This document shows, in pieces, positions 1,479 through 60,706 of a stretch of DNA of 64,000 nucleotides (position 1 is its first letter; the number at the start of each line of letters is the position of its first letter). Below the pieces are notes generated by a model that made no database searches, was not told the origin of the DNA, and saw nothing but the letters and a program-made list of their open reading frames with translations. A program made the position numbers and the translations under genes. The stretch is from Eledone cirrhosa (Eukaryota): positions 55,180,001 to 55,244,000 of the forward strand of contig OZ024742.1 in assembly GCA_964016885.1 (NCBI GenBank). Reading direction: 5' to 3'.

Positions 1479-2493
<1,015 letters not shown>

Positions 2494-2526
2494 ATTGAAC
2501 CTTGTTTAACCTTTAAATACACACAC

Positions 2527-3649: not shown

Positions 3650-4529
3650 GTACTTTATCGTTCACGGAATACGAAAAGCACAATTTCTAACCAACAATCC
3701 CGTGAAGCATTTCCTTGGCCTTATTGGCTCTATTTCTTTTCTATTTAAAAACTATGATAGAGGAAACCCCACGTATACTTAAGTAGAAATAGATTTTTTT
3801 CTTTTTTCTTCATTAGTTACACACTCTAATTACATTTAGGTTGATCTTTGCATACCTACACTTATAATCAGTTTCTATTCTTCCTTAGGTTAATCCAGCA
3901 TATGTTCATACTTGTTAAATATTCATAGATCCAGCCGAACAGATAGCCATGGGTATTTTTCATTATGAAAGAAAATACTAGTGAATTACTGTATTGAGGC
4001 GCCGTTCCAGTGCATTAAAGTAACTGATAACTAAATTTTATTTATTAGGAATTTAATTAATATTAATATCTATAAGCTTTGCTATTTAGCTATAAACTTG
4101 GCATACTTACTTTCACTCTAACGACCCTTCTTGATTCTGATTTACTTTCCTACCCCCATTAGAGAGGGTTGTAAAGATTTATCTCTTAACGCCTGGGCGG
4201 TTGGCACCCACAGGTCAGAATGTCAGCTTACTCCCTGCCCGTTGTTCTATAGGCAAGTTCAGACTCCCCCTGCTGCTATGAAGGAATCTAACCATGTACA
4301 TGACATCCCCAAATCATTGACCGCCTCCTGTGACGGACAAGAAAAACCAACAAAATTTAGGATTGTTTTTGTTACTTCTGCTTTTTTTGTTTTGACTGCA
4401 TGCTCATATATGGACTGTATCTCTTGATAAGTTCAGGTAGGTCCTTGCTATCCTAATACTGCTGGGTTAGTTCGGATCTTGCTGTCGAAACGACCGGAGC
4501 TCAGCCGTCGGGGTCCCGATTCTTTTCCT
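3650..4529 (+). mobile_element. Diverged PLE 3' UTR/pLTR, related to family A
   Basis: 3' part resembles 10200-10446 and 39058-39330; same hammerhead layout; ends TTCC|(TA)n. Confidence 0.7.
4419..4514 (+). ncRNA. Hammerhead ribozyme, U3-A8 variant
   Basis: ATCTC-TTGATAA-long stem II (AGGTCC/GGATCT)-GAAAC...GAGCTC...GTC-GGGGT. Confidence 0.65.
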
Positions 4530-4935
4530 ATATATATATATATATATATTTTTTTTTTTATATTGTATATATATATATATACAGTTTCGTGCTGTAGAAA
4601 CAGGACCGTCCTTATTAGGTTTAGACTGAATGCTCTATACAAATGTTCTACACAAAAGTTCCACTGCATCAATACATAACACTTTACAAAGAAGATATGA
4701 ATAATGGTAGAACAGTAAAATTGTATAATAGATGAACGTGTTTATTCATATTGCAGCGTAAAAGTACAATTAAAAACAAACAATCCAGCCACCTCGAACG
4801 TGGGAATATGTATAATGAAAGACATGACACACGACGTAACTGCCGAACAAGTTGTGGATGTCAGGATACAAGCAATCACATTCTCCAGTGCTTATCTGTC
4901 ATAGAAGGAAATACTATATATATATATATATATAA

Positions 4936-7772: not shown

Positions 7773-7863
7773 CGAAGGAAATGTGGTAAGGAACCAGGTG
7801 GACCATAACGCACCAAAGTACTCAATACTTGAGGTAGTAGAGTGGGTAATAGGAACCAGTAAG

Positions 7864-7957
7864 ACCCCGACAGCTGAGCTCAAGCCGTTTCGACGGCTAA
7901 TTCTGGACTAAATGAAAATTTATCCTGGTATTTAAATAGCCGATCTTCTCAAGGGGT
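7864..7957 (-). ncRNA. Hammerhead ribozyme, U3-A8 variant (mirror of 10339-10432)
   Basis: Reverse complement of the 10339-10432 motif. Confidence 0.8.
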
Positions 7958-8989
7958 AATTCCATATATGGTCAAAGTGATTGTCAAAAATCAGTAGTAA
8001 TTCTGTGGTTGCAAATTAGTAGGGGAGATGGTGGCTAAACCTGCCAGTAGGAGAAAGAGGGGAGGGGGTGGAGTAGACCCAATCAAGCGTTGGTAGTGCC
8101 AGCTACAGCTGGGCATGAGGTCAAAGAAGATACAGGGGAGGGGGAGGGGGAGGAAGTCGGAACGGTAGGTAGAACAATGGGGGGTAGAAATAGGAAAGAA
8201 AAAAAAAAAAAAAAATACTGAGAGTGAAGAAAGGCAAATAAGTGTAAAGAAAAGTAAAGTAAATTAAATTCTACGACCTAGGTGTCAGGCTATTGTTAGG
8301 CGAGAATAAAATAAAGAAAGAAAGAAAGAAGTAAAAAAATAAATAAATGAATAAATAAGGAAATAAGTAAGAGAACTAGGTGGGACGAATTAGGCAAGGA
8401 CCCTTTTAAGAGGTATAAGTACGTAAATGATACGGTGACGGGTCAACAAAAGGGGCCAAAATACTAAAGAGACTACCACGAAATAAACAATAAAGGTTTC
8501 CATCCCGGGCCAGCAACGACCCAGTGCAGCAAAGTGAACTTGTACGAGATAATAATTCTGAGTCCCGAGAAAAATATATACTAATGCTAACTCTAAAAGA
8601 TCTAAAACAAGCTACATGAAAGTTCGTACGAAATAAAGGTAGAATACGGAGAAATAAATTCAGAATCCACCCCGCCCAGAAGAAAAGCGAAGCAAGAAAT
8701 ACTGAAACGAAAAAATAAGGCATGTGCCACTAAGAAATATAGAGGGCACAGAGAATAGTGGGAGCGGTCGGAAAAAGGGGGAAAGTATCCGGGGTCTAAG
8801 CCAGCTACTATAAAGGGCGGAGTCCGCCAAATCTATCAAAGACTAGGGGAGGGGGGGTGGGGGTACTAAGGCTACATGGGGCCAAAGGGCAGCCTCGGGT
8901 GGGCGAGAAAAGACGCCGACAAAGGAGAAGAGCTGGGGTAGAAGGACAAAGGGGAGAGGGGGGAAGGAAATAAAGGAAGCGATAAAAGA

Positions 8990-9226
8990 ATATGGGACCT
9001 CAAGGACAACAACATCACCTATGATCTCACTTGGAGATTACTGTCCAGAGCCAATTCTTACACGGGAGGACGCCGTCCGTGCAATTTATGCTCGGAGGAA
9101 ACTTTACAAATGCTGTTTTCGACGGACCAACTCCTAAACAAGAAAGATGAACTGGTTACTGCATGTAAACATAGATTGCGTAGGAAATACCTCGCCCTCA
9201 AACCCCATAATGACCCGGGGGGGTAG
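8990..9226 (+). pseudogene. C-terminal fragment of PLE GIY-YIG endonuclease (not in ORF track)
   Basis: Manual translation IWDLKDNNITYDLTWRLLSRANSYTGGRRPCNLCSEETLQMLFSTDQLLNKKDELVTACKHRLRRKYLALKPHNDPGG*; W.LL..A..Y...C.LC..E...LN...E....C.H pattern. Confidence 0.85.
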
Positions 9227-10338
9227 ACTAGGGCTATAACACCCCAGTTGCCGATTTTGCAATAGGTAACCCCTGCTTGCCAAGGAAGACGTAAGATCTT
9301 CTTTGTATTCTTTTATCGCTTCCTTTATTTCCTTCCCCCCTCTCCCCTTTGTCCTTCTACCCCAGCTCTTCTCCTTTGTCGGCGTCTTTTCTCGCCCACC
9401 CGAGGCTGCCCTTTGGCCCCATGTAGCCTTAGTACCCCCACCCCCCCTCCCCTAGTCTTTGATAGATTTGGCGGACTCCGCCCTTTATAGCAGCTGGCTT
9501 AGACCCCGGATACTTTCCCCCTTTTTCCGACCGCTCCCACTATTCTCTGTGCCCTCTATATTTCTTAGTGGCACATGCCTTATTTTTTCGTTTCAGTATT
9601 TCTTGCTTCGCTTTTCTTCTGGGCGGGGTGGATTCTGAATTTATTTCTCCGTATTCTACCTTTATTTCGTACGAACTTTCATGTAGCTTGTTTTAGATCT
9701 TTTAGAGTTAGCATTAGTATATATTTTTCTCGGGACTCAGAATTATTATCTCGTACAAGTTCACTTTGCTGCACTGGGTCGTTGCTGGCCCGGGATGGAA
9801 ACCTTTATTGTTTATTTCGTGGTAGTCTCTTTAGTATTTTGGCCCCTTTTGTTGACCCGTCACCGTATCATTTACGTACTTATACCTCTTAAAAGGGTCC
9901 TTGCCTAATTCGTCCCACCTAGTTCTCTTACTTATTTCCTTATTTATTCATTTATTTATTTTTTTACTTCTTTCTTTCTTTCTTTATTTTATTCTCGCCT
10001 AACAATAGCCTGACACCTAGGTCGTAGAATTTAATTTACTTTACTTTTCTTTACACTTATTTGCCTTTCTTCACTCTCAGTATTTTTTTTTTTTTTTCTT
10101 TCCTATTTCTACCCCCCATTGTTCTACCTACCGTTCCGACTTCCTCCCCCTCCCCCTCCCCTGTATCTTCTTTGACCTCATGCCCAGCTGTAGCTGGCAC
10201 TACCAACGCTTGATTGGGTCTACTCCACCCCCACCCCTCTTTCTCCTACTGGCAGGTTTAGCCACCATCTCCCCTACTAATTTGCAACCACAGAATTACT
10301 ACTGATTTTTGACAATCACTTTGACCATATATGGAATT

Positions 10339-10432
10339 ACCCCTTGAGAAGATCGGCTATTTAAATACCAGGATAAATTTTCATTTAGTCCAGAATTAGC
10401 CGTCGAAACGGCTTGAGCTCAGCTGTCGGGGT
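10339..10432 (+). ncRNA. Hammerhead ribozyme, U3-A8 variant with extended stem II
   Basis: ACCCC-TTGAGAA-GATCGGCTA...TAGCCGTC-GAAAC GGC tTGAGCTCA GCT GTC-GGGGT. Confidence 0.82.
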
Positions 10433-10442
10433 CTTACTGGTT

Positions 10443-10531
<89 letters not shown>

Positions 10532-10584
10532 ATTAATAAAAACAATGGAATAAAAACAAAGAACAGGTTCCTTATATTGAAACA

Positions 10585-10725
10585 TTCATCATTTACGATC
10601 GTTTCTGGGATATATATGTGTGTTGGTATGTATATCATATTAAAGATCTATGTAACAAAAATTACAAATTATCAAAGGAGATATACATACCTTCACCTAT
10701 ACATGCCATCTTCAGAAATGATGAA
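10585..10725 (-). ncRNA. Hammerhead ribozyme (mirror of 11792-11936)
   Basis: TTCATCATTT-CTGAAGA...GAAACGATCGTA-AATGATGAA on minus strand. Confidence 0.72.
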
Positions 10726-11791
10726 GTATGTTTATTGAAAGAAACAAAGTATTAATATAAAAGGTCTGTAGTGGCTACGTCTAACCAATTCAAAGTAAGA
10801 TGTAATACCCACAAACATAGTTTTTAAAATGCCGCATTAGCTAATACAACCTCCTTGGTTGATGCAATTAATAATTATAGAAATAGGGATATTGATTACA
10901 ACCAGACATGGAGCGTGCTCAAAAGGGCCACCCTTTATCAAAATAGCAGATATGAGTGTAGATTATGCTCCCTAGAACTATTTGAAATCATGAAATCTAA
11001 TGATATCCTTAATTATATCATGCAATCATAGAATTAGAAAAAGCTTCAAATATTATAAACATAATTAGTATATACCTCACTTTTATATTTTACAAATCAT
11101 TATGATTAAGTAAAACATGTTTTTTTAATTTAGTTAACCTATAATTAGAAATATACTACAGAGAATTTCATAATTTTATTTCCCTCTTACAGCCCACTTT
11201 ACCTAAAGTCATCTTTAACCTCACTACTTCTTTTAACTGCACCCCCTATATATCACATTTAATACCTAGGATTATTAAATATAATTAATATCTTTAAAAC
11301 TGCTTTTTATAAAATGTTATCTATTTCAGTTTTTCTATATATATTTTTTATTTTTTTATTTTTTTACTTCTTTATTTATCACATCAGAATTAATATAATT
11401 TTAACTCTGTAAGTATACCTAACAATTAATTTAATTTCCTTTTATGTAACTAGGTTCCTTGAAATTTAAATAGGATTAGTATTTAGCACTAACACTCTCA
11501 TCCCACAAATTTCTTTCCCTTCGCTTTTAACAGTATGTTTTAATAACATCAAATTTTTGGGGGAGTCCTTCACTATCTTCTGGATTTGACCTCATTTTAA
11601 CCCCTATCTGTCTGTTCCCCATTCTATTCTTTTCATTCAAAGCATAAATGTACACTCCTCCCCTCCTAACATAAAATTCTACTACCGTAATTCTATCAAC
11701 TTGACCTCTAACTCTTTTCTATTGGTCAATTCAAAACCTGTTCCCAAACAGGCTTTTTATATTACTACTTTGTTTCTTTCAATAAACATAC

Positions 11792-11936
11792 TTCATCATT
11801 TCTGAAGACGGCATGTATAGGTGAAGGTATGTATATATATATCCTCTGATAATTTGTAATTTTTTTACATAGATCTTTAACATGATATACATCCCAACAC
11901 ACATATATATCCCTGAAACGATCGTAAAATGATGAA
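11792..11936 (+). ncRNA. Hammerhead ribozyme with ~105 nt domain II
   Basis: Stem I TTCATCATTT/AAATGATGAA (10 bp), CTGAAGA, GAAAC GATC GTA (palindromic ACGATCGT). Confidence 0.78.
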
Positions 11937-12128
11937 TTTTTCAATATAAGGAACCTGTTCTTTGTTTTTATTTCATTGTTTTTATTAATTTATCTTGACT
12001 CTGTTTTCCTATCATTTTTATCGTTAATTTTTTAAAGCATTTTCTCTTTTCATGATATCTTCTATATTTGGATTACATTGAGTTCTTCATACGGATTGGA
12101 CGCTACCGTTTATTTTGGAAGATTTATA

Positions 12129-12179: not shown

Positions 12180-12387
12180 TTGCGTATAATGGTAGCTATG
12201 GTGCTTCCATAGGCGGTATGCCAAAATTAGCACTCAATATTCATACAGAGTAGAGTGTGGATAGTATAAAAAAACGAAAAATCAGTGATACATCTGGACT
12301 CAGTTTATTGCGTGTTACAATTGTTTCACCGGCAGGTAGCTCGATATATATATATACATAGTATATATATAATATATATAATATATA

Positions 12388-12591
12388 TAAACAACTATCT
12401 GGTTGTGGAACCAACCAACCAACCAGAAATTTATAAATTTGTAAATTTATAAATATTTAATAAATTAAATTGAAGTGAAAGCAACTGGTGCGTGTGTTTC
12501 TTATTGGCAACATGACCCTCCCAAAGTATAACAATATCGGTTTCAACACACGATTTCAGATAAAGAATCTTGCTAAACAAATTCAGAAACG

Positions 12592-12594
<3 letters not shown>
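12388..12594 (+). mobile_element. Family D PLE terminal fragment + 57 nt tail
   Basis: 12388-12537 is the reverse complement of about 1585-1715; extends 12538-12594 then (TA)n. Confidence 0.85.
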
Positions 12595-12679
<85 letters not shown>

Positions 12680-13174: not shown

Positions 13175-13949
<775 letters not shown>

Positions 13950-13998
13950 TTTTATTTATATGTATATAAATAAATAAATATATATATATATATATATA

Positions 13999-14045
13999 TT
14001 TCGTTTCTGAATTATTGGCAACATGACCGTCCCAAAGTATAACAA
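13999..14045. mobile_element. 47 bp two-ended family D mini-insertion
   Basis: TTTCGTTTCTGAATT (reverse complement of tail tip 12580-12594) joined to ATTGGCAACATGACCGTCCCAAAGTATAACAA (terminus, cf. 12503-12534), TA on both sides. Confidence 0.85.
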
Positions 14046-14059
14046 TATATATATATATA

Positions 14060-18134: not shown

Positions 18135-19015
<881 letters not shown>

Positions 19016-20904: not shown

Positions 20905-22460
20905 TTAAATCTGAACCGGGACAAGTCGATCGGTCTGCAACTCGGCACGTGGAGGGGCAGATCGATGCCCTCCGATGGCGTCGACGGGCGCTGAACGGAG
21001 GGCCCGGTGAAGTTGCTCGGGGTCTGGTTCGGACCAGACCTCCAGGTGGAGAAGAACTGGGGTGAGGTAACGAACAGGGTGTTTGCACTGACCCAGAAGT
21101 GGGCCGAGTGCAAACTGTCCCGGAAAGGTCGGGCGGAGGTGGCGAACACTTATGTAGCGTCCGTCATCTACTACCGCCTGACCGTTGTGCCTTGCCCAGG
21201 GGAAACGCTCGCCAAAATGGAGCGCGCACTCTTCCAATTCCTTTGGAAGAAGCGGGCTCCTATGGTGAGGAGATCCATCTGCTGTCAACACCCTTCGAAA
21301 GGAGGGCTGGGGATGCCGTGGCTAATGATACGTAAACACGCATTAAGGCTACGGCACCTTCAGTTATTCCTCTCCGGTCAACCGGTGTGGGTCCCGTTTG
21401 TGAGGCGAGCCTTTCCCAGACTCGTCTCACTCACCGAGCTGCAATCCTGGGTCAAGCAAAGACCGAGAAAACTGGGCGCCTGGCAAACCGAGTGTGCCCA
21501 GGCGCTCACGGCTCTCTGGCAGGCGGACCCGGCTGTCAGTGGAGAATCCACCTCGTCATTCTATAGAGGGCTGGTGGTTAGCAGGTGCGACGACGCCCTC
21601 GGAGAAGCCCTAGGCATGGAGGAAGACGAACTGGCCAACCTGTTCGGTAGAACATTCAGCCCGGGACCCATGGATAACTTCCAGAGGTACCTGGCCTGGC
21701 AATGCTACAGAAGGGCTCTGCCCGTTCGAGAAAGGCTCTACAGACACGGGCGCCCGGGTAGGGACCCATCGAAAAAGATCTGTCCCAGATGCGTGTGCGA
21801 CGAGGAAACCGTTGCACACGCATTGGTACACTGCTCGGGCATTGCTGATCTGTGGGGCTATGTCGAACAACTGCTGTCAAGGGTGGGACCGATCCGGTTA
21901 ACCACTGAGTCTATTGTAACGATCAAGCCGCCTCCCCTCTTCAAAAACGAAGAAGAGGCGGTGTTTCTGTGCGTAATAGCCATGGCGAAAGAGGTTGTAT
22001 GGTGGGCACGTTTGAAAGGACTGAGGTCAGACACCTTTCTCTCTGGCCAACAACTGGTCCGTTTCTTCCGATATAATTTCGGAAGAAGGATCAGGATGGA
22101 GAGAGAGGTGCTGCACCCCAGTCGTTTTTATGAAAGATGGGTGAAAGTGGCGAGAATGGCCCGTGTGAATGGGCCTTCACTCTACATCAGACTATAGGTG
22201 AGGAAGTTGAAAGACCAAGGGAGCACCCCTTCTCTGTGCTCCTGAGGAGAAGATTTGCACACTTTTTTCCAGGAGTGTGTGCGACCCCCCAAGGCGCCTC
22301 CTCTCTATTGAGGACTTTGTTATAAATTTTATTTTTTGTTATATTTTATTTTATTTTTATATATTGTTATTGCCTCCTCCTTATTGAAGACGCCTTGTTT
22401 TGTAAACTGCCCCCATTGTACTTGTCCCACTTTTGATGCCCTGGTGGCAAATAAAAGAAA
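20905..22460 (+). mobile_element. 5'-truncated Tx1/L1-clade LINE (RT C-terminus, CCHC knuckle, 3' UTR)
   Basis: ORF 21007-22197: KLLGVWF, LSRKGR, GGLGMP, CPRC..EETVAHALVHC; in-frame TGA near 20992; GC-rich island; AATAAA + A-rich end at ~22450. Confidence 0.9.
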
Positions 22461-28383: not shown

Positions 28384-29194
28384 CATTATCTATAAAAGGC
28401 TGATTTTTGTGTCTGTATGTATGTTTCAATTTTATACATTTACACAATTCCAAAAATATTGAATGAATAATTAAGCAGAATGTTTACAAATATTCTAACT
28501 TGGGTCATGGGCGAACTTATTGGTTTAAAAATTGCCACAATTACGGAAAAATCGATTTATTTCAACAATCGATGATTTCTCCTATCTCATATGATATACG
28601 TTTCCTATATCTACTCCCTTCATCACCTCCCTTAAAATTGCTACCTTCTCTTATAAGTGTTTGTGAAAAAGAGAAACATTGAAAAAAAACATATACACAC
28701 ATATATGTAGGTGCATACACACACATATATGTTGGTATGGTTGCGATTGACGTCATAGAAACAGGAACGCGGGAATTTCAATCAATCAACGCATACACAG
28801 TTTATTTTAAAAATAACAATAGCATATAATGATAAAGAGGGATATAATGATAAAGAGGAAGAGAGAGAAACAAACAGACACACTAAAAGACGGATATATG
28901 TGTGTGTGTTTGTATTAGCGCGTTCAAACTCCATTTCGAAGCTGACTTTCATTTACTAAACTGTAAGTTTTTCAATCGGCCTTACACTTTCAAACTATAT
29001 TTTTCTGTATAAGTAACTTTAACCCTTTATTTTCGACATAAAAATACACACATACATACAAAGACCTGTAAAGTATTTTTTGGGCCTTTCTTATCAATCT
29101 TTTTACATTCAATTATCAGCCTTATACTTTCAAAGTCAATTTTTATGTTGAAGTAACTTTCAACCTTTAATACATACATACATACATACATACG

Positions 29195-29226
<32 letters not shown>

Positions 29227-29647
29227 CACACATACATACCTGTCACTTAATTTACACACAGATCGGCCTTACACTTTCATACACACATACATACAAATAC
29301 CTGTCACTTAATTTACACACACATCGGCCTTACACTTTCAAACTAAATTTGTATGTAGAAGTAACTTTAACCCTTTCTTTTCAACATAAAAATACACACA
29401 TACATACAAATACCTGTAAATTTGTTTTTAGGGCCTTTCTTATCAATCTTTTTACATTCAATTATCAGCCTTATACTTTCAAAGTCAATTTTTATGTTGG
29501 AGTAACTTTCACCCTTTATTTGTCGATACGCATTTACTTACTAACATTTGTATCACAACAACAATAACAATATTCATAAACAGACAGTAGACTTTCAAAG
29601 TCAATTTTTCTGTAGAAGTAACTCTCACCCTTTCTTTTGGACATAAA

Positions 29648-30390
29648 ATGCCACCTAAAAAGAGAAGTCGCCTCAGTCGACATACCGCGTCAGCAGTGGC
29701 GCAAAAGGCTACTATAGCAAACGAGTCCTCTGAGGAAAATGATTCAAGACTTTCACAGACAGCCTTACGTTCAGCAGAATGTCGAGCCGCTGAAAGTTTC
29801 CAACAGCGCACCGCACGCCTAGCCAAATTGGCTTCATACCAGGCTTCTTCCAGGGCTTCAGAGAGCCGTGAACAAAGGTCGACGCGCCTGGCTAGAAACG
29901 ATGCGACTAATACTGCTTCCAGGTCTTTGGAACGTTTAAAACAACGGACGGCTCACCTTCCTACGAACGCTGCGGCTATGACTACTTCCATGGCTTCTGA
30001 AGATGCAGACGGGCGGTCCATTAGCATTGCAAATGTTGCTTCTGCTATTGCTGCCAGACCTTCCCACCAACCACACGACCAATGTTCTACGTTCAAGCGT
30101 AACAGTCGACGGCGAGAAGCTGCACGCGGTGTGACGAGCCCCAACAGCCCTTACTGGCACCTACGGGTTTTCAAGTATGAGCAAAACGTTAGTTACTCGA
30201 TGCGCTCTGACATAAATATAGGCGAGATGCGCTTCAATTGCCAATTCTGCAATGCTACAAAGTGGGCTACGGAGCCACCTGCAATGTGCTGCTTAAACGG
30301 TAAGGTCACCTTGCCCCCTCTTACGGAACCGCCAGAGCCTTTGAAGGAATTACTGACTGGTTATACCTCAAGGTCAAAAACAAAAAAAAC
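29648..30390 (+). pseudogene. Helitron RepHel N-terminus (helical repeats + Zn finger)
   Basis: MPPKKRSRL, R..RLA repeats, IGEM..CQFCNATKW..EP..MCCLNGKVTLPPL..PPEPLKELL. Confidence 0.85.
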
Positions 30391-30419
30391 CTTATCCCCC
30401 CCCCCCCCCCCCCCCAATA

Positions 30420-31670
30420 AAAAACGCTCCTGGGGGTACCGGAAAAATGTTGTAACGAATTTGATTCTCGCTAAGATTCGTCAGGAGAAAAAAAGTTGCG
30501 TTGTCCGTTGCATCGTCCGGGATCGCTGCTACTTTGCTGCCGGGAGGCAGGACAGCACATTCAACCTTTAAACTCCCCTTGGATTTAGTAAAAACTGAGA
30601 CACCAACATGCAATATCAGCAAGAGTTCACACAAATCTCTGGTTCTCAAAAGATGTTGCCTCATTGTTTCGGATGAGTGCACAATGGCACACAAGGGTGC
30701 CCTTGAGGCATTGGACAGGTCCCTAAAGACATTAGGGATTCTACGGCTCCTATGGGTGGCGTAACACTTCTGCTATCAGGGGATTTTCGGAAAACGCTGC
30801 CTGTCATCCCCAAAGGGACAAGAACTGATGAAGTGCGTGCCTGTCTTAAGTCGTCCATGTTGTAGCTCCGGGTGAATAGTTTGTACCTGAGCACAAATAT
30901 GCGTGCTCATTTGCATGGTGACAACATGTCTGCAGCACAGAACATTTTACCACTTGGTGAGGGCAAGATCCCTGCGGATGACAAGGGCGGCATAGCAATC
31001 GACACCCTGTGCAACATTGTGAGCAGCCCTTCTGACCTTTGGGAAGCAGTTTTTCCTAATGTCTCATCTAACTTTAAAAACCTCGATTGGCTCAGCGAAA
31101 GAGCCATCCCTGCTCCGAAAAATACCATGGTTAATTTTATTAACGAGCAGCTGATTGAGAAGATTCCCGGTAAAGAGCACATCTTCAAATCAGACCCCGA
31201 CGATATCGTTAATTATCCGGTTGAGTTATTAAATCTCCTTGAGCCCCCAGGGCTCCCACCTCACATTATTAAGCTTAGGGTTGGCTGTCCCATTATGCTA
31301 ATAAGGCACTTGCGTCCACCAAAGCAGTGCAACGGTACTCGCATGGTCGTCAAGTCACTGACACCCACTTGATTGAGGCCACCATTGTAACGGGGTGCGG
31401 AAGAGGGGAGAATGTTTTCATTCCAAGGCGTCAGATATCCCGTTCGATTTCCGGCGATCCCACTTCCCGGTGAGACCATGTTTTGCCATGTTTTGCCATG
31501 ACAAGTCACAAGAGCAAACATTGTCGGTGGCGGGCATCCATTTGAGGGAGTCATGCTTCTCCCATGGCCAACTTTATGTTGCCTGTTCCCGCGCAGGGAG
31601 CAGGAATGGACTTGTTGCTTACTCTCCTCAAGGGATGACACGCAATATCGTCTACAAAGAGGTGCTATAG
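30420..31670 (+). pseudogene. Helitron PIF1-like SF1 helicase, frameshifted
   Basis: APGGTGK, VASSGIAATLLPGGRTAHSTFKLP, DECTM, GDFR, LPPH.LKLRVG..IML.R.L...CNGTR, CFSHGQLYVACSR. Confidence 0.9.
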
Positions 31671-32431: not shown

Positions 32432-32840
32432 GGAAAAAAAAGAAACGAAATTTCATTTTCCACTCTTAGTACGGCTGTTACTTAAATATAAGTATGTACA
32501 CATACATATATGTATACAGACGTACAGTAGTATGTATATATATATACACACATGCACACATATATATATATATATGTACGTATGGATTTACCGAACATTT
32601 ATTATAATGCTCGGTGTGTTTGTAAACAAACACCCCGTATTACCTTTGTCAGTGTTGAACCAACGAGCAACGATGGTTGCTAGACACTACGGCTTAATAT
32701 GGGATGTTTGTTTACAAACACACCGAGCATTATAATAAATGTTCGGTGAATCCATACGTACATATATATATGTGTGCATGTACGTATATATATACATACT
32801 ACTGTACGTCTGTATACATATAGGTATGTATGTGTACATA

Positions 32841-32845
<5 letters not shown>
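32428..32845. mobile_element. Fold-back element in (TA)n, ~150 bp arms, ~60 nt tail
   Basis: 32490-32642 inverts 32695-32843; extra 32428-32489; TA both sides. Confidence 0.7.
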
Positions 32846-32884
<39 letters not shown>

Positions 32885-32887: not shown

Positions 32888-35706
32888 TAAAATAACAGAT
32901 TAAAGTTTAAGCAAAGAATCGTTGCTTTCACCCTTAACGGGATCTTCTGAAACTAACAAAGTCCATCTGTAAACGCAGAACTGGATATTTCAAAAAACGT
33001 TGCAACCGGAGGAAGACAGGAAGACTATACTTTGGTTCGTGGAAACGCTCGCTGGCAAAGAACGGGAAAAAACGAATAATACGTCATTAATAGGAGCGAG
33101 GAAAAACAATTACGCACAAAGACAGAACCACGTTTATGGTATAAAAGAGGTCGTAGACTAATGTTCTCTTAGGTGGTGCATAGAGACGTTCTCTGGCAAT
33201 GAACGAAAAACGAAGATAATACGTCATATGTGGAGCGAGGGGAACAATAGCACGCCAAGACAAAACCACGTAAATGGTATAGCAGAAGTCGTAGACTAAA
33301 ATTCTAACCAGGAGACCAAATGAATCTCCGCTACAGAGTTAAGAACAAAGTAAATAAATACAATACAGAAGTAATAGAAATAAATAAATAAATACACGCA
33401 AACAAATACGTACATACACAAGCATACGCAAAACCTTACCATAGGTATACAAAACCACGTACAAATAAATATGTGTGTGTGTGTATGCGTGTATACAAAT
33501 AAATAAATAATTATATAAATGTATAAGAATAAATAAATACGTATATAACAAGCGCACACACACCTACATATAAATACACGAATGTTCGGAGACGTAAGCC
33601 AACCAAAACAAGAAGTACACATATACACACACCCACCATACGTACGAACCTGCATACTCACACAGACGCAAAACTCCCGTATACACATAGCCAAACCCTA
33701 TGTACCAGAAATATAAAATTATACGCCATAACAATCAAATATACGTACGAGAAGGTATACGTACCTTCACAAAACATACGGGTAATATATACTCACCTAT
33801 GCAAATAAACAAAACATATACTTAGCTCCCACATCAAGACGTAAAATATTCACGTATAGATCGTACTATCCGTTAGGGTATAACGTGGGGCTGTAATACA
33901 GGAAAGTTTTGTGCAATATATGTTTACAAGCCGAAATTGCCTCAGATTTTTTGTTTAAGATGTGGTCTGTGGCGTAGAGTATTTCCAGGGCCCCAGCGGC
34001 GCAGAGGTCACATGGTCTTTTATTTCCGTTATACGATCTAGCCCTAGCTAGGATCTCCCAGTGTAACTTATATTGGGTGTGGTTGTCTTTTAGACTTCAG
34101 ATATAAGCTGAAAGTGACGTCATATTGCTTCTTAGAGGGTAACGAAAAGAATGGGTATGCATGTAGAGACGCTGCTTGAAACTATTGGCGGTTAACCCTA
34201 TGTAGGCCCTATGGGACGTGGGTGTTACAATCTTACATTTGTAGACAATGTTACTAGAGAGGCATTTCCCGGATAGGGGGCAATCAGCCCTGTTCCTAGA
34301 ATTACAATTAGTACTAACTACAGGGTTGCACGTGTTCCTACGGCTACGTAGTTTAGCTAAATTTGAAGCTGTGACGTTATGTGCAAGGTTAGGAGTCTAG
34401 AGTAAGAAATTTTAATAGTATTTCTATTAAAAATGTTACTATATTTATGTGTAAGGGGAAAATGCTTCGTAATAACGGAAAGAAAGATCTTAGCTAATGG
34501 TGTGGCCACCTCCATATTATATGGTGGGTTATACCAACAAATGCGACGGGATCTATTTCTTCTAGGTCTATTTTCGTGCTCTGTATATGCTACCTTATCG
34601 ATAAATCCACTTCGAGCAAGAGCTTCATTGTAATAAGTGGAATGGTCGTTGAAAATACGCTCGTTGGTGGAAAGACGGGAAATCCTCAATGAAACGTTTC
34701 TTACCAGGTTCTTGGTTATGCTGGCAGGATGGTTGGAATGCTTACTTATTTAATTAAGCGTATCATTCGGCTTTCTATACGGGTAATACAACCTATTCAA
34801 TAAATTGAGGGTAACGTCGAGGTAATTAACGATCGAGTGATTGACCTCAACCTGTATAGAGAGGTTGAAGCCTTTAAAGAAGGCTGTGAGTTATTTTCTG
34901 AACCTGTCGCAAGCACGAGGTCCGCACTTAGTCATGGTCAAAAGACCATCGTCACGGTACAAACCACCGCCCGCGTTGGGGAATTCGTCCTTGATAGGGA
35001 AAAGAAGGAAAAGGCCAATAAGATCAGTAACCTCCGCAGAGTCACATGCGCCCATACTCACGTCGAATGGGGTACTATTGGATTTTTTAATCCAAATAGA
35101 GTCGTCGAAATTAATCACCGACTTTCGGGCATTGAGGATGACATCAACTTCGAAATCCTTAACCACTGTGAGTGTTTTAGCGAAATTGATAGCTCTAATG
35201 AGAAGTGGTGAAGTGATGGAGGAGTAGTAATTGTTGATGTCGAATTGGATAAAACGGCAATTTTCCTTGTTACATATGCCGTTGAACCAATCAATCACCG
35301 CGAAAGAATTGTTCCACAGTGCAAGAGGGGCCAAACTTCTATTTTCAGGTATAATTCTATCAAGAATCGTTTTACTAAGTCTACCTAAATCGGACTTCGT
35401 AGGGTTAATAAGCCGAATAAAGGGGTTGTTCGGAAAATTGGATTTGTGATCCTTCAGGGTAAAGTGGGGAGAAATAGGGTCCAGAGGTTCGGTCCGGTCC
35501 AGGATGTTGAGATCAGATGAAATTTTAAACCCAGCATCGTTGATTTCATTGATGACGCACCGATTAGTTTTACGGTAATCCTTAGTTACAGCATTATGTA
35601 GTAGTTGATGGTAAGTACTGCGCTCCACTTGATATTGGTTGCCAGTTTTGTCGGAATGGACGTGCACGGCGTTAGAATCCTTAATAGAACGAATTCTATT
35701 CCTCAG
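32885..35706 (-). mobile_element. 5'-truncated Penelope-like element (RT + GIY-YIG + 3' UTR), frameshifted
   Basis: DKTGN, IRLINP, FIQFDINNYY, MGACDSAE, LYRDDGL, SNHP, WYNPPY, NCR..CPLSGKCL..IVY, YIGLT..FKQR, WEILARA, CDLC, LNKKSE..CKH. Confidence 0.92.
33045..33306. repeat. ~145 bp imperfect tandem duplication in PLE 3' UTR
   Basis: ATAATACGTCAT..GGAGCGAGG..AACCACGT..GTCGTAGACTAA occurs twice. Confidence 0.8.
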
Positions 35707-35710
35707 ATAT

Positions 35711-36773
35711 ATAGTTTTGCGAGGTTTTTTATATGAAATCGTGTGTCGAAACAAATATTGTTATACTTGAGGAGGGTCATATTTGTGTAATAATATTGCC
35801 AGAATTAATAACAGAACACACTCACTGTGAGGTTGGTTTTCGCTTCTGTGTCTTATATATCGGTTAATTTAATTTATTCGGTCCTCAATGTTACCATTGA
35901 CTGACCAACGGTCAAAAACACAGATACAATATAGACACAAACACATATATATGGTCTAACAAAGTTCTTTCGTTACATATCTCCATCATCGTCAGTAGTG
36001 CTATTATGTTTCCCCCCCGTTGCATTGTATGCCTACGCCATCTTTATTTAGTCTGTTTATTTATTTATTTATTTGTTTATTTTTTTGTCTTCTCTGCGCA
36101 TGCATTTGCGTGTGTGTATAGTGTTTTGTTTGATGTGTGTTCGTGTTTGGGTGACTGTGTATTGGTTATTGTATTCTATCTTAGTTTACTTGTGTGTGTT
36201 TATATGTGTGTGCATGTATTTATTTATTTATTTATTTATTTATATTGAATAACAACAACACCCAAACAAACAATACTGATCTAAGAGAAGTATAAATAAA
36301 TAAATAAATAAATACATACACAAGCACAATAACAACAAACACATATAAACACACACTAGTAAACTAAGATAGAATACAATAACCAATACACAGTCACCCA
36401 ATCACGAACACACATCAAACAAAACATGCGCAGAGAAGACAAAAAAATAAACAAATAAATAAATAAATAAACAGACTAAATAAAGATGGCGGAGGCATAC
36501 AATGCAACGGGAGGAAACATAATAGCACCACTGACGATGTTGTTGCAGATGTGCAACGAAAGAACTTTGTTAGACTATATATATGTGTTTGCGTCTATAT
36601 TGTATCTGTATTTTTGACCGTTGGTCAGTCAATGGTAACATTGAGGACCGAATAAATTAAATTAACCGATATAAAAGACACAGAAGCGAAAACCAACCAA
36701 ACAATGAGTGTGTTCTGTTATTAATTCTGGCAATATTATTACAAAAATATGACCCTCCTCAAATATAACAATA
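35711..36773. mobile_element. Fold-back PLE remnant, family D' (~480 bp arms, 44 nt tail)
   Basis: 35755-~36250 inverts ~36290-36773; terminus ATGACCCTC...TATAACAA as family D; hammerhead-like CTGACGA..GAAAGAACTT at 36531-36567 (+) and 35956-35999 (-). Confidence 0.85.
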
Positions 36774-38487
36774 GGGGAGAAGAGTTAGGAAATAGAGTGA
36801 CAAACTGAGATGGAGGGAGGGGTAGACGTGGAAGGATTCCTTGATCAGTTTTGATATGTAGACTTCATGTCGTGGAATGTAGTGAGGTAAATAGAATTAA
36901 ATTGATCATAGTGGGAGGGATAGAGAGAGAGAGAGAGGGGGGATATATAAAGAGATAAATATATATATAAAAAATAAAGATAAAGATAATAATGACAAAA
37001 ATAAAAGCAAAGAAGGGGAGAGAAAGAAGAAAAGAAAAGATGGCCAAAAAGGGGAGGGAAGGAAGAAAACGAAGAAATAGAAGAGGAATGAAGGAGAAGG
37101 GAGTGATATAGGTATTGGTTTTTGTGGGTAATTAAAAGGGTTTAGATACAATAAGAGGGTATAAAGTCTAAGTATATGCAGTTTGTCAGTTGGTAGTAAG
37201 AGGTTAAGGGTTCGATTTGCACTTGTAGTGCGAAAACGTTTCTAGTGGGTGGTTTGAGTTACAGTTGACGTATGCTAAGTTTTCATTAATGTTGTGAAAA
37301 GGTCTTATAAGTCCCGTATTTAGGCTAAGCGTCGCGTCTAGAAAGTTAACTGTTTTAGTGCTATACTCATACGTTATGCTAAGGCCTAGTTTCCTGAGAG
37401 TCTTTCTAATATTCTTACTGAGTCTTTCTATGCTCTAGTTATTTAGGTTCTTACCTAGGAGAAGGGCGTTGTCTCTGTAGATTCCACCGTAAAGGCCGCT
37501 AAACACTCTGTAAACTATGGGCTATGTAAATACCTACTACATCTGTGACTTGAGCCGAGTCGTTAGCCCCCATCGTGATGTCAAAGCTATTTAATCTATC
37601 CTTACGTTCCCAATAGGCGTTTTCAAATTTAATTATTGTTTTCCTAGCAGCTAATATGATTTTTATCTCGTCGTCTGTTAGGTCAGAATTGGCTTTGGCG
37701 AATGCTAAGGCTTTATCCAAGGTGTTGGGGGATATAGAGGAGTAATAGTCGTTAATGTCAACTTGTATAAATTTACATTCTTTTTTGTTAGCTATATTGT
37801 TAAACCACTTAATTGTTTCGGTAGCGTTACCCCATAGTTTAATCACTAGTTTCTTCTTCATTTGTGCTATCACTCTGTCTAATATATGTTTACTAATTTT
37901 CCCGATGTCCGATTTGGACTGGCATATAAGTCTAATTGTGGGGTTGTAATCAAAATTTACCTTGTGGTCCTTGAGATTAAATGTGGGGGTACATGGCTAA
38001 GCGGCTCCGTTCTGTCGTCTATTCCTAGGTGTTTGACTATATTGTGTGCCTCGTTGTTGATGTTTATCAGTGCCGGCTCATTAGTTTTTATGTATTTCCT
38101 ATGTAAGTCTTTCCGTATGAAGTTATTGCATGTATTAATATCCATCGTATACACATTTGAGGTTTTGTCCGCTTGACAAAGAAACGTTTTCGCACTACAA
38201 GTGCAAATCGAACCCTTAACCTCTTACTACCAACTGACAAACTGCATATACTTAAACTTTATACCCTCTTATTCTATCTAAACCCTTTTAATTACCCACA
38301 CAAACCAATATCTATATCCCTCCCTTCTCCTTCATTCCTCTTCTATTTCTTCGTTTTTATCCTTCCTTCCCTCTCCTTTTTTGCCATCTTTTCTTTTCTT
38401 CTTTCTCCCCCTTCTTTGCTTTTATTTTTGTCATTATTATCTTTATCTTTATTTTATATATATATATTTATCTCTTTATATCTCCCT

Positions 38488-38985: not shown

Positions 38986-39057
<72 letters not shown>

Positions 39058-39058
<1 letters not shown>

Positions 39059-40122
39059 GGAGAAAGTATGACCCCGACGGCAGAGCTCAAGCCGTTTCGA
39101 CGGCTATTTCTGGACTAAAGTAAGACTTTTTTTAGTCTGGTAAATAAATAGCCGAACATTTCAAGTGTACTTGCTTATATGGAAATATTGTAGTTGTCAA
39201 GGGGATTGGTCAAAATTTGTAGCGGACACAGAAAAGTCTATTATGGCAGTGGGTGTGGGGTGTGGATGGCTGAACTTGCCTGTAGAACAATAGGGGAGTG
39301 GGTAGAGCCGGTCAAGCGTAGAAGGTGAAATCTACACTTCAAATTCAAAGGAATGTGCATGAAAATGTCAGAGGCGCTTGGCGAAAAATGGTATCTTTAG
39401 AAAGTGGAGGCGGGACGTTATAGAAATAGTAAATCAAATACGATTAGGGGACAAATTAAAAATAAAAAAAGAATATAATAAAAAAAATGAGAGAAATATG
39501 TAACAGAAAGTAAGATTGGAAAGTGAGAAGTAAAATAAGGAGTCTAACACAGCTGCTATATTTCGGCCAAAGCCACAGAATGAGTTGCTAGAAGAGAATA
39601 ATTGAAACATTTAGAATTAAATATTTAGTATTAAATATTAATACCACATATCTAGGGTCTAACACAGCAGCTATGAACAGTTAGTATAGGGTAATCGGCG
39701 AATGCTATCTGTAAGTTACTGGGGTAGGGGTACAGAGGCTAAAAAGGCCCGATGGGCTGCCTCGGAGTAGGCGAAAGTGGAAAGAAAACAAAGAAACGAA
39801 CGAGGAAGAAGTTCGGTGGTGGAAAGAAGTGATAGGGGGGAGACAAAAGGAAGAAGAATACATGTAGGAAAAGAAAAGAGGTACATCTACCTATATAAGT
39901 AGGGGTTTATCCTATCTCATTCGGCAAGTGGGGTGTTTCAGCCCTAGTCTACCCACCCGGATCGTTAGGGGGTTTGAGGGCGAGGTAAGTCTTCCGTAAT
40001 ATGTGTTTGCATGCAGTTACCAGTTCGTCTTTTTTGCTTAGGTGTTGATCCTTCGTAAACAGCATTTGTAATGTTTCCTCCGAGCATAAGTTATCCGGAT
40101 GGCGTCCTCCCGTGTAAGAGTT

Positions 40123-52891: not shown

Positions 52892-53414
52892 TAAGAGAGT
52901 ATTGAAGTTTGCTTGAAGCATTGTGGAACAATAAGTAAATATCTTTAAGTCGTTTGGAAGCCTCGACAATGCAAATGGGTAAATCTCCGACTAACAAGGT
53001 CCGGTGGTGGAGAGAGAGATGTAAGTGGGTGTACGTTGAGATGCGTGGTGTGTATAACATGTGTGAGATGTGTAGAATGAAGGGAAGAGTATAAAGAATA
53101 AAAATAAAAATAACAACACAAGAGAGAGTTACCTTGGGAGAGATTTAATAGTCCCTATATATTTCGGATTCACATCCATCAACTGGGGTTTTTTTTCGGG
53201 GTGGGGGAAAAGGTTGTCTGTCGGACAACTCGGAACACGTCTTTCGCTGTTTGTTGATTTGAATATCTGAGGTATTCGGCCGAGCGCCATGTTATACACA
53301 CCACGCATCTCAACGTACACCCACTTACATCTCTCTCTCCACCACCGGACCTTGTTACCCGGAGATTTACCCATTTGCATTGTCGAGGCTTCCAAACGAC
53401 TTAAAGATATTTAC
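52892..53414. mobile_element. Fold-back element in (TA)n, 127 bp arms, 43 nt tail
   Basis: 52935-53061 inverts 53288-53414. Confidence 0.72.
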
Positions 53415-53430
53415 ATATATATATATATAT

Positions 53431-53795
53431 ATTAGAAAGTGAGGTTTTTTTTACATAATGAAAAATAACCGAGGTGTCCTACCCGAGTGAAAGTATAAAG
53501 AAAAAGAGATGAAATCGAAAATGCAACTGGTGTCTTATTTTTTTTTTCTTAAATATATATATTTATTTGGTTCCTTTACCGGTTTCGCAGTTCTTCTGCT
53601 TTTCAAAAGGTGAGTTGAGATGGAGGGTCTGTGGTTTTTCTCACATCTGATGTGAGAAAAACCACAGACCCTCCATCTCAACTCACCTTTTGAAAAGCAG
53701 AAGAACTGCGAAACCGGTAAAGGAACCAAATAAATATATATATTTAAGAAAAAAAAAATAAGACTCCAGTTGCATTTTCGATTTCATCGCTTTTT

Positions 53796-53802
<7 letters not shown>
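53431..53802. mobile_element. Near-perfect 309 bp palindrome + ~63 nt tail, derived from the 3' end of the PLE at 60757-64000
   Basis: Palindrome 53494-53802 centred on 53648; 53431-53649 nearly identical to 60757-60971. Confidence 0.9.
53686..53723 (+). ncRNA. Minimal hammerhead, U3-A8 variant (mirror at 53573-53610 minus)
   Basis: CCTT-TTGAAAA-GCAG aagaa CTGC-GAAAC CG GTA-AAGG; palindromic ACCGGT. Confidence 0.82.
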
Positions 53803-53952: not shown

Positions 53953-54473
53953 TATCTGAGCTGCCCGGATATGTTGTGCTATTTATGCTTTTTTTTGCAT
54001 GATCTACACCAACTGAATTACTTTGCCAAAATCTGGGGTTATTCCCCTTGTGATTTCCACACGTGGTTTAACTTACCACCGTGTCATTCAAGTACAGAGC
54101 GAAATACCTGTTGATAACGTGATATTCCTTGTTCGATCGTTATACACAAAGCTTATATTTTTAAGCAGACTGTATTTTGATTTAGGTGTTACAGAAACTC
54201 TACATCGGATTTTAACAGCAATTCCGGGAGTCCAGGTCTGGTTATCATTTATTTTTTTTCATTTATTTTGTTTTGACCTGTTTAAGTTGATTTGGTTTTT
54301 GGCTTGGATGGTTAATGCTTTCTTGACCACCTTTTCAGTTTTGTATGGCTTCTTCATACATTGTTTAGCTCCGGTTTTTAACTATTGAGCACTTGCCAGT
54401 ATCATTTCGGATTTTTACGTTTCGCTTCGCTTTTCCTGCCCGCCGAAAATGCGATTCTCGCTGAATCTTTATT

Positions 54474-54521
<48 letters not shown>

Positions 54522-54594
54522 AACACACATACATATATACATACATACATATATACATACATATATTTGTACGTATGTGTATGCACTTAATTTG

Positions 54595-56149: not shown

Positions 56150-56286
56150 AACGAAGGAAGTGTGGTAAGAAACCAGATGGACCATAACGCACCAGAGTAC
56201 TTGATACTTAGGGTAGTATTATACTGAGTCCAGAAATAACCGTCGAAACGGCTTGAACTCTGCCGTCGGGGTCTTGAACATTTTCC
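56150..56286. mobile_element. 137 bp two-ended family A mini-insertion
   Basis: 56150-56218 matches tail 7771-7840; 56228-56286 matches hammerhead 3' half and terminus 10387-10445; TA both sides. Confidence 0.85.
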
Positions 56287-59009: not shown

Positions 59010-59174
59010 GAGAGAGAGATAATACATATATAAATATGTGTGTTTTAGTGGTAGTATGCATGTGTGTATGTATGCCTGTATATATGTACGTATGTAAGCG
59101 TGCATACACACCATGTGAGAGAAAAAAGCGTCTGGAATTGAATCGCCAACACACACATTATATATATATATATA

Positions 59175-59379
59175 TTGTTATACTTGGGGAGGGTCATATT
59201 CGTGTAATAATATTGCCAGAATTAATAACAGAACACACTCACTGTTTGGTTGGTTTTCGCTTCTGTGTCTTTGTAAAGGTTAATTTAATTTATTCGGTCC
59301 TTAATTTTACCAAGTATAACAATATTTGTTTCGACACACGATTTCATATCAAAAACCTCGGAAAACTAATTCATCGCCG

Positions 59380-59381
<2 letters not shown>
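59175..59381. mobile_element. 207 bp two-ended family D' mini-insertion
   Basis: 59175-59310 matches 35758-35896; 59310-59325 inverts the terminus; tail 59326-59381 matches reverse complement of 35711-35754. Confidence 0.88.

Positions 59382-59414
<33 letters not shown>

Positions 59415-60651: not shown

Positions 60652-60659
<8 letters not shown>
60364..60659. mobile_element. 211 bp perfect hairpin (5 nt loop) + 85 nt tail in (TA)n
   Basis: 60449-60551 inverts 60557-60659; contains a hammerhead. Confidence 0.85.
60551..60613 (+). ncRNA. Type I hammerhead ribozyme
   Basis: ATTTTGT-CTGATGA-AGGcATACCA..TGGTATCCTt-GAAA TATATA TA-ATGAAAT. Confidence 0.78.

Positions 60660-60706
<47 letters not shown>

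What the first reader, a model, noticed from the sequence alone, without database searches (positions are those of the whole stretch)
12512..12594. The 3' 'tail' is the start of the element's own ORF
The family D terminus plus tail reads AACATGACC... = [28 protein letters not shown]. Sister family D' reads MTLLKYNNICFDTRFHIKNLAKL (35781-35712, minus) and KYNNICFDTRFHIKNLGKLIHRRN (59312-59383). Differences include synonymous changes (AAT CTT GCT vs AAC CTC GCA), so this looks protein-coding although it lies downstream of the GIY-YIG stop and 3' UTR. This points to a head-to-tail tandem or circular template and recovers the N-terminus of an element whose 5' end is absent here.
Basis: partly seen in the sequence, partly recalled or inferred. 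Interest (0 to 1): 0.7.

Follow-up and report, generated by a model that had tools for sequence, protein, structure and literature searches.

The report
Penelope retrotransposon tail copies gene start
The short protein-coding stretch at the far end of this broken jumping-gene copy is likely the beginning of the element's own gene, probably carried along because such Penelope-type elements are copied from head-to-tail repeats, a layout already published for this kind of element.

Summary
12512-12595 reads [28 protein letters not shown], and the sister family D' keeps the frame (dN/dS 0.15-0.17). The reading is very likely right but already published: in Penelope-like elements (PLEs) the 3' repeat plus tail holds the first codons of the ORF (PMC3846280), and reverse transcription starts inside the ORF start (PMC11167929). 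No full-length family D copy was reachable (no genome held). Instead, three full-length RT+GIY-YIG relatives of D's endonuclease begin with a similar motif. One relative (L001) shows stop, UTR, hammerhead, ATG and the same peptide that opens its ORF; another (L005) ends after 24 such codons in an AT run. Against these starts the D peptide ranks first of 817 ATG frames in the window in two tests. All 4 tail-less arms stop at ATG+24-26; 3 of 4 tailed arms stop at about +84. Earlier notes of this scan reported this two-end rule for other PLEs of the same genome. Tandem versus circular template is not resolved; tandem is better supported. Side lead: the relatives carry a ~70-residue insertion in the RT fingers together with a C-terminal endonuclease, possibly an undescribed PLE lineage.

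The parts
12383..12511 (+). 5'-truncated 3' UTR / pseudo-LTR of a family D copy
   Evidence: 83% identical over 148 bases to 1713-1585
12512..12537 (+). ATG and first 8 codons; ends at the inner fixed end shared by tail-less arms
   Evidence: 145 contigs of run X1 leave the stretch here with an AT-repeat consensus
12538..12597 (+). tail: codons 9-28 of the likely ORF start, ending at the outer end CGA AAT before (TA)n
1968..2522 (-). C-terminal GIY-YIG endonuclease fragment of family D (CX4CXXC linker, CCHH-type Cys/His), with its stop
   Evidence: translation; Pfam GIY-YIG E 0.0008, 20.2 bits, below the 22.6 cut-off; 1832 relatives at E<=0.001
1611..1967 (-). family D 3' UTR / pseudo-LTR; 358 bases from stop to ATG
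1722..1766 (-). predicted minimal type I hammerhead ribozyme (core CTGAAGAG at 1760, 7-bp stem II), 150 bases before the ATG
   Evidence: own descriptor: 1 hit in the window, 0 in 30 shuffles; no Rfam hammerhead match; cleavage untested
1585..1610 (-). ATG head without tail, ending AAC AAT into (TA)n
13997..14048 (.). 52-base family D mini-insertion: arm spanning ATG-11 to +26 on the plus strand joined to the last 17 bases of the tail (+69 to +85) on the minus strand, between (TA)n runs
35712..36250 (-). family D' arm with UTR, degenerate hammerhead-like core (35995), ATG 35780 and shortened tail (23 codons)
36251..36773 (+). inverted family D' arm with hammerhead-like core (36531), ATG 36749, no tail
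59172..59312 (-). inverted family D' arm, ATG 59197, no tail
59310..59385 (+). direct family D' arm: codons 5-28 with full tail, ending CGT AAT into (TA)n

Best explanation
12512-12595 is likely the first 28 codons of the single RT-endonuclease ORF of a Penelope-like element, left at the 3' end of a truncated copy because the element is probably transcribed from a head-to-tail (partial) tandem and reverse transcription probably starts inside the next unit's ORF start. Shown: the frame, its conservation between D and D', its place behind GIY-YIG stop, UTR and a hammerhead-like motif, and two recurring end points (ATG+24-26 and about +84). Shown in relatives only: the same kind of peptide opens the ORF and is repeated after the stop. 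Inferred: the RNP cuts (TA)n and primes at two fixed sites on the RNA; the outer site gives the arm with the tail, the inner site the arm without it, and the two cDNAs are often joined back to back to give the inverted insertions. The selection signal was acquired in full-length parent elements; the genomic tail is not itself a gene.
For: dN/dS 0.15-0.17, only frame open in all three copies. In runs X1/X5 the 9 listed variant positions inside the ORF fall 6 on third, 3 on first and 0 on second codon positions, none making a stop (read by hand, table 3). Full-length relatives found through D's endonuclease (P0074) and then through P0074's N-terminal 330 residues (P0158 cluster, P0159 cluster) start MALKPINYGYNTRSII, MAITRGLSFNTRDTI and MVLPNINLNYETRNTI. 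Met-anchored score against these three: D tail 78, first of 817 ATG-started 22-codon frames in the window (next 48), 2 of 10000 shuffles; D' 45, seventh, 241 of 10000. Repeat with the starts of L001 and L005, found afterwards by RT motifs: D first (52), D' second (49), third 46; 14 and 31 of 10000 shuffles. L001: stop 3131, hammerhead core 3237, ATG 3310, MVKTKLPCFGLSFNTRDKI; the contig's last 123 bases equal its first 123, which run in frame to the YVDD motif with one stop at codon 231. L005 stops after 24 such codons in an AT run; L002 and L004 stop after 7-8 codons in (TA)n; L003 repeats 936 bases of its ORF start after the stop at 97.8%. Literature: pLTR holds the first 12 aa and with the tail 22 aa (PMC3846280); RT starts 111-118 nt into the ORF and the tail lies between two start sites (PMC11167929).
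Against: No family D or D' copy was seen running from the peptide into an RT: no genome is held, and in runs X2/X4 the 10 loose ends shown of 39 gave no ORF continuation past 12597. The only database protein holding the peptide itself (P0005, 136 aa, Octopus bimaculoides gene model) continues into unrelated sequence. Likeness to relatives is short and weak without the start anchor: against P0074 alone p about 0.03, and 15 of 2346 control windows score as high; an unanchored profile ranks the D frame sixth of 3070 segments at E about 3-4. The anchored test was designed after the motif had been noticed. L003 and P0156 begin without the motif. The endonuclease tree does not resolve D's place among the relatives.
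Confidence: 0.9

Rival explanations
1. Same peptide identity, but the template is a monomeric circular RNA made by hammerhead cleavage and ligation; the RT starts in the ORF start and runs round the circle.
For: A hammerhead-like motif lies in the UTR. Circles were proposed for PLEs as a tentative model (PMC4209133). L001's 123-base terminal repeat fits a circle as well as a tandem.
Against: L003's repeated ORF start differs by about 2%, as two genomic copies in tandem would. In vitro, uncleaved RNA was the dominant template and hammerhead mutants did not change insertion (PMC11167929). PLE minimal hammerheads cleave poorly as monomers (PMC4209133). No circle was looked for here; no RNA holder was listed.
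Confidence: 0.15
2. The tail is conserved as a non-coding RNA signal (a hairpin or protein-binding site for RT initiation) and the open frame is incidental.
For: The anole element needs the first 172 nt of its ORF as RNA and starts in an AC-rich stem-loop; the tail here is AC-rich. Earlier notes describe conserved hairpins behind the ends of Hydra-clade elements (unchecked).
Against: None of 5 tails or ORF starts folds better than shuffles (z -0.41 to +1.21). Changes fall mostly on third positions. The likeness to distant relatives is at the peptide level. An RNA role on top of coding is not excluded.
Confidence: 0.05
3. The peptide is the start of the RT that directly follows the D' copy at 35711-34000, or belongs to a host exon captured by the element.
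For: The D' tail abuts an RT fragment. One Octopus gene model starts with the peptide.
Against: The D' frame stops three codons after the tail and the RT is in another frame. That RT has the DKT motif and CxCX5C linker of the Hydra clade, lacks about the first 90 residues by eye against Hydra-1_Obim, and has no significant likeness to P0074 (best E 0.94). The repeat is very abundant (8245 contigs laid in X1), so a gene model starting in it is most simply a prediction artefact.
Confidence: 0.03

Closest known systems
Pen2a_Av and other EN+ Penelope elements of Adineta vaga (Arkhipova et al. 2013, PMC3846280; passages read)
   Same: pLTR contains the first ORF codons, the tail extends them (12 to 22 aa); inverted pLTR beside a direct one; tail on one side only.
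   Different: Here 8 codons to the inner end and 28 with the tail (tail about 60 bases against 31); targets are (TA)n, so target-site duplications cannot be read.
Poseidon_Ac / PAc internal RT initiation (Frangieh et al. 2024, PMC11167929; parts 1-2 of 4 read)
   Same: Tandem organisation; two start sites inside the ORF start bound the tail; AT-rich target; hammerhead in the pLTR.
   Different: PAc starts 111-118 nt into the ORF in a stem-loop with its hammerhead overlapping the ATG. Here ends lie at +24-26 and about +84, the hammerhead is 150-218 bases upstream, no stable hairpin is predicted, and both ends fall on AAT next to AT repeats.
Nematis clade of C-terminal EN+ PLEs (Craig et al. 2021, PMC8557442; passages, sections 11 and 12, supplement parts 57-58 of 59)
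   Same: Short CX2-5CXXC linker directly before the GIY-YIG, CCHH-type residues, a V/IVE(K/R)PG stretch before the linker (by eye).
   Different: The relatives of D have DKS and LRKDHK where the three Nematis rows show DKG/DKR and YKTHK, and about 70 extra residues between RT motifs A and B'; N-terminal region about 480 residues before motif A. No tree with the reference sequences could be built.
Naiad/Chlamys PLEs with insertion in fingers (PMC8557442)
   Same: Extra sequence between RT motifs A and B'; (TA)n targets; tandem/inverted insertions with tail.
   Different: Their endonuclease is N-terminal, the insertion is about 20-40 aa and canonical hammerheads are mostly lacking; D and its relatives have a C-terminal endonuclease, a hammerhead-like motif and (relatives only) about 70 aa.

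Membership tests
EN+ Penelope-like elements | GIY-YIG endonuclease at the ORF's C-terminus with CCHH-type residues | tested here: met
   P0002 ends in a stop before the UTR; Pfam GIY-YIG E 0.0008 but under the cut-off; the relative L002's domain aligns to I-TevI, Z 11.1, rmsd 2.0 over 88 residues
EN+ Penelope-like elements | Telomerase-like RT in the same ORF | tested here: inconclusive
   Family D's RT is not in the window. For relative L002 (model pLDDT 83) the best structural matches are telomerases (Foldseek E 1e-7; Z 17.2, rmsd 3.8, 263 residues)
EN+ Penelope-like elements | pLTR that includes the ORF start, with an optional one-sided tail | tested here: met
   4 tail-less and 4 tailed arms in the window; start identity by likeness to relatives, not by a family D full-length copy
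EN+ Penelope-like elements | 5' truncation and inverted 5'-truncated copy | tested here: met
   3 inverted insertions (13997-14048, 35712-36773, 59172-59385) and 2 single truncated arms among the 5 D/D' insertions
EN+ Penelope-like elements | Hammerhead ribozyme motif in the pLTR | tested here: met
   Descriptor hit at 1760 minus, 0 in 30 shuffles; also L001 and L004 (2 of 9 loci); the two D' cores fail the strict descriptor; Rfam found none; cleavage untested
EN+ Penelope-like elements | Partial tandem copies in the genome | tested here: inconclusive
   None for D in the window; L003 (97.8% repeat of 936 bases) and L001 (123-base terminal repeat) in relatives
Nematis clade | Short CX2-5CXXC linker plus CCHH before/in a C-terminal EN | tested here: met
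   PCIDKKCVIC...NCKTRNVVHSIRC in P0002 compared by eye with the Nematis rows
Nematis clade | RT groups with Nematis in a phylogeny; no insertion in fingers | tested here: inconclusive
   D's RT absent; 15 of 16 relatives have motif A to B' distance 130-133 against 60-62 in the window's two other PLE RTs, which argues against plain Nematis; reference RTs were not available as sequences for a tree
Hydra clade | No CCHH, CxCX5C linker, DKT motif | tested here: not met
   D has a CX4CXXC linker and CCHH-type residues; relatives have DKS; definition
Naiad / Chlamys | N-terminal endonuclease | tested here: not met
   EN is followed by stop and UTR in D and lies at residues 870-1038 of 1047 in P0074

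The most novel reading that the evidence does not exclude
Family D is the octopus member of an undescribed lineage of Penelope-like elements of marine animals: about 1000-1200-residue ORF opening with an M-x-[FY][NDE]TRxxI motif, a folded ~70-residue insertion at the position of telomerase's insertion-in-fingers domain, a Nematis-like C-terminal GIY-YIG and a hammerhead, with two RT start sites after codons 7-8 and 24-28 that need no stable hairpin and may pair with the cut (TA)n through AT. It would be the first C-terminal-endonuclease PLE group with a fingers insertion, longer than any reported for Naiad or Chlamys.
Probability: 0.35. Interest if true: 0.55.

Novelty: new member of a known kind. 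Interest (0 to 1): 0.3.

Why it matters
The feature itself confirms a published rule of PLE anatomy in another family, so it is ordinary. It is useful in practice: the tail gives a probe for the missing 5' end of a very abundant family and marks the two likely RT start sites, which can be tested in the existing in vitro PLE assay. The side lead would matter more: a PLE lineage with a long fingers insertion bears on how telomerase and PLE reverse transcriptases are related.

Tried and rejected
Own-genome search for a full-length copy: not possible, no genome held. Read mapping past the tail end: copies run into (TA)n; 29 of 39 loose ends were not shown and contigs drop rare forms, so this is no proof of absence. 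No RNA holder listed. Longer proteins holding the peptide: 1 of 115 candidates, P0005, judged a likely gene-model artefact. Longer relatives of the EN by word index: 2 of 159, neither with the motif. Tail pattern in viral contigs: 0. Rfam on 1500-2100: no hammerhead, only a (TA)n-driven chance match. Supplement of PMC8557442 (cut when stored) has no KYNNI, PKYNN, LRKDHK or RPVCG; line breaks and alignment gaps could hide a match. Stable hairpin in the tail: none in 5 of 5. RT next to the D' tail as the continuation: rejected. Endonuclease tree: 12 of 23 inner branches open, and the L002 row was cut from the wrong region and must be ignored; not used for placement. PDB sequence search with A4: nothing below E 0.003. 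Whether the 70-residue insertion is homologous to telomerase's IFD was not tested; the fold searches give only whole-chain ranges. ESM Atlas on P0074 1-330 returned eukaryotic clusters with DUF8422 on 34-52% of members, a lead only. Earlier findings: nothing near this place or by sequence.

Full report
Setting. The window is AT-rich animal DNA full of (TA)n and (CA)n runs and short inverted repeats. The two named database matches to family D are from Octopus bimaculoides (P0005; P0006, 52% to the endonuclease), so the source is likely an octopus (inference). No whole genome is held.

Observation. 12512-12595 (+) encodes [28 protein letters not shown] and then enters (TA)n. D' copies give MTLLKYNNICFDTRFHIKNLAKL (ATG 35780, minus) and KYNNICFDTRFHIKNLGKLIHRRN (59312-59383). 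D against the two D' copies: differences by codon position 2/2/7 and 3/3/10, dN/dS 0.149 and 0.174, Fisher p 0.006 and 0.002; the other five frames hold stops in at least one copy, and only the antisense frame that shares third positions has a similar ratio (0.24-0.25). In public contigs the 9 listed variant positions within the ORF are 6 third, 3 first, 0 second position, 5 synonymous, none a stop (by hand).

Anatomy in the window. Five insertions belong to D or D'. (1) 1585-2522 minus: GIY-YIG C-terminus, stop, 358 bases of UTR with a hammerhead-like motif 150 bases before the ATG, then ATG...AAC AAT and (TA)n, no tail. (2) 12383-12597 plus: UTR remnant, ATG, full tail. (3) 13997-14048: an arm from ATG-11 to +26 joined in opposite direction to tail bases +69 to +85. 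(4) 35712-36773: two arms of about 500 bases back to back, tail on one only. (5) 59172-59385: an inverted arm from -115 to +26 and a direct arm from about +11 to +86. All 4 tail-less arms end after AAC AAT (+24 to +26); 3 of 4 tailed arms end after CGA/CGT AAT (+84 to +86), the fourth at about +69. In run X1, 145 contigs leave the stretch at 12537 with an AT-repeat consensus, the largest listed loose end on that side. Arms overlap by 0, about 16 and about 500 bases, so the inner end is a fixed family site rather than the meeting point of simple twin priming (inference).

Does the peptide start the ORF? For family D itself this was not shown: no genome, no continuation among the loose ends shown (10 of 39), and the single protein hit continues into unrelated sequence. 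The RT that follows the D' tail at 35711 is in another frame, has Hydra-clade motifs and does not resemble D's relatives. The evidence comes from relatives. A phmmer search with D's endonuclease gave 1832 proteins, of which the best 150 were listed. P0074 (1047 aa, 32% over the EN) begins MALKPINYGYNTRSII. A search with its first 330 residues added two clusters beginning MAITRGLSF(D/N)TRDTI and MVLPNINLNYETRNTI. The pattern [FY][ND]TRxxI, written after seeing these, occurs 12 times in the 181 proteins held (67,939 residues): in the tail peptide, in P0005, and 10 times at residue 9-10 of two relative families; P0174 has E at that place and is missed. Unanchored tests are weak: p about 0.03 against P0074 alone, 15 of 2346 control windows as good; a profile of four N-termini ranks the D frame sixth of 3070 segments, 9 of 5000 shuffles. 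Anchored at the Met, D is first of 817 frames (78 against 48; 2 of 10000 shuffles) and D' seventh (241 of 10000). A scan of metagenome contigs with RT motifs gave 9 loci from 107 pattern matches. All 9 were examined and 6 with a readable stop and UTR. L001 has stop, UTR, hammerhead, ATG and MVKTKLPCFGLSFNTRDKI at its 3' end; the same bases open the contig and run in frame to YVDD with one stop and, later, a frameshift before the EN. L005 has a like peptide for 24 codons, ending AGT AAT before a short AT run and unrelated sequence. L002 and L004 end after 7-8 codons (MVLATINY, MVLPLIN) in (TA)n. L003 repeats 936 bases of its ORF start after the stop at 97.8% but lacks the motif; L008 showed no such end; L006, L007 and L009 were not informative. 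With the L001 and L005 starts as references D and D' rank first and second of 817 (52, 49, third 46; 14 and 31 of 10000 shuffles). L001 and L005 are kin to each other, and their ENs are 39% and 43% identical to D's.

Mechanism. Shown: layout, selection, two end points, and in relatives the repeat of the ORF start after the stop. Taken from the literature: PLEs sit in partial tandems; RT starts at internal sites in the ORF start, and the tail is the stretch between two sites (PMC11167929). Inferred for D: a read-through RNA from a tandem carries UTR and next ATG; the RNP cuts (TA)n and primes at about +84 or +26; most cDNAs stop within a few hundred bases; two cDNAs joined back to back give the inverted forms with a one-sided tail. 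Both ends fall on AAT beside AT repeats, so 2-4 bases of pairing with the target are possible, unlike the non-homologous start reported for the anole element, but AT-rich sequence makes this weak. No tail folds better than shuffles, so the hairpin signal that earlier notes describe for Hydra-clade elements of this genome (unchecked) is not seen in D. A circular template was proposed for PLEs (PMC4209133) and is not excluded; L003's diverged repeat and the in vitro result that hammerhead cleavage is dispensable favour a tandem.

Comparison with what is known. Arkhipova et al. [quoted passage not shown] Craig et al. 2021 describe partial tandems, inverted copies and a one-sided 30-40-base tail as general. 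The finding is therefore a known feature in a family that I did not find described. D's linker and EN look Nematis-like by eye; it is not Hydra, Naiad or Chlamys by the features tested.

Side lead. Of 16 relatives measured, 15 have 130-133 residues between RT motifs A and B' (one had no B' match), against 62 and 60 in the window's two other PLE RTs. In a model of L002 (pLDDT 83; 83-96 over the insertion, which holds four short helices) the best matches are telomerases. Craig et al. give about 20 residues for Naiad and 20-40 for Chlamys insertions, none for canonical C-terminal EN+ elements, and sporadic ones in Coprina. Three literature searches returned only that paper and the 2013 one; Repbase, Dfam and the 2006 clade paper (recalled, not seen) could not be searched, and the supplement was cut when stored, so the lineage may already be named. 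D's own RT is absent, so its membership is inferred from EN identity (30-43% to these relatives) and the start motif.

Papers seen: PMC11167929 parts 1-2 of 4; PMC8557442 passages, sections 11 and 12, supplement searches and parts 57-58 of 59; PMC3846280 passages; PMC4209133 passages; bioRxiv 10.64898/2026.07.22.740005 passages, with no occurrence of tail, ORF or octopus.

Verdict. Observation confirmed; interpretation supported (0.9) but known; novelty: new member of a known kind; interest 0.3. Most novel reading not excluded: an undescribed PLE lineage with a long fingers insertion (probability 0.35, interest 0.55).

Noticed in passing
P0074, P0164, P0174, P0157, P0038, P0156, L001:694-2697, L002:204-2462, L003, L006: Relatives of family D's endonuclease carry about 70 extra residues between RT motifs A and B' with a C-terminal GIY-YIG; possibly an undescribed PLE lineage.
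   Followed up: partly
window 34000-35711 (-) and 37237-38180 (-): Two decayed Hydra-clade PLE ORF fragments (DKT motif, CxCX5C linker in the first); the D' inverted pair sits between one of them and an inverted copy of the other's 3' region (36773-37243 vs 38695-38180, 88%).
   Followed up: partly
window 61966-63867 (-): A PLE with RT (DKG motif) and GIY-YIG with long CX4CXXC linker, Neptune-like, interrupted by one in-frame stop at 63058-63060; runs off the window end region.
   Followed up: no
window 7849-8992 and 9306-10447: Young inverted pair of 1144 bases (99.7% identical) flanking a short Hydra-type endonuclease remnant; its end (10325-10447) recurs at 39005-39182, 4467-4581 and 56227-56275 and contains a GCCGTCGAAACGGC hairpin; an ATG frame there (MELPLEKIGYLNTRINF) scored second but not in the top six.
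   Followed up: no
window 10528-11993, 13389-13899, 18346-18908, 32483-32850, 52931-53802, 60446-60662: Further short back-to-back inverted insertions between (TA)n runs, the usual PLE footprint; 10528-11030 holds a decayed Hydra-type endonuclease.
   Followed up: no
window 20995-22197 (-) and 54382-55206 (-): Fragments of a LINE-like (L1/Tx1-type by recalled motifs) ORF2.
   Followed up: no
window 29591-31372 (+): Helitron-like fragments (Rep N-terminal zinc region and PIF1-type helicase motifs, recalled), preceded by a short dispersed repeat at 28975-29648.
   Followed up: no
P0005: An Octopus bimaculoides gene model starts with the D-type tail peptide and continues into unrelated sequence; probably an annotation artefact, though exonisation of the tail ATG is possible.
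   Followed up: partly
L003:466-2421: The ORF of this relative holds a long in-frame low-complexity (Thr/Ala/Asn/Ser-rich) tandem insertion in its N-terminal region, 1632 codons open in all.
   Followed up: no
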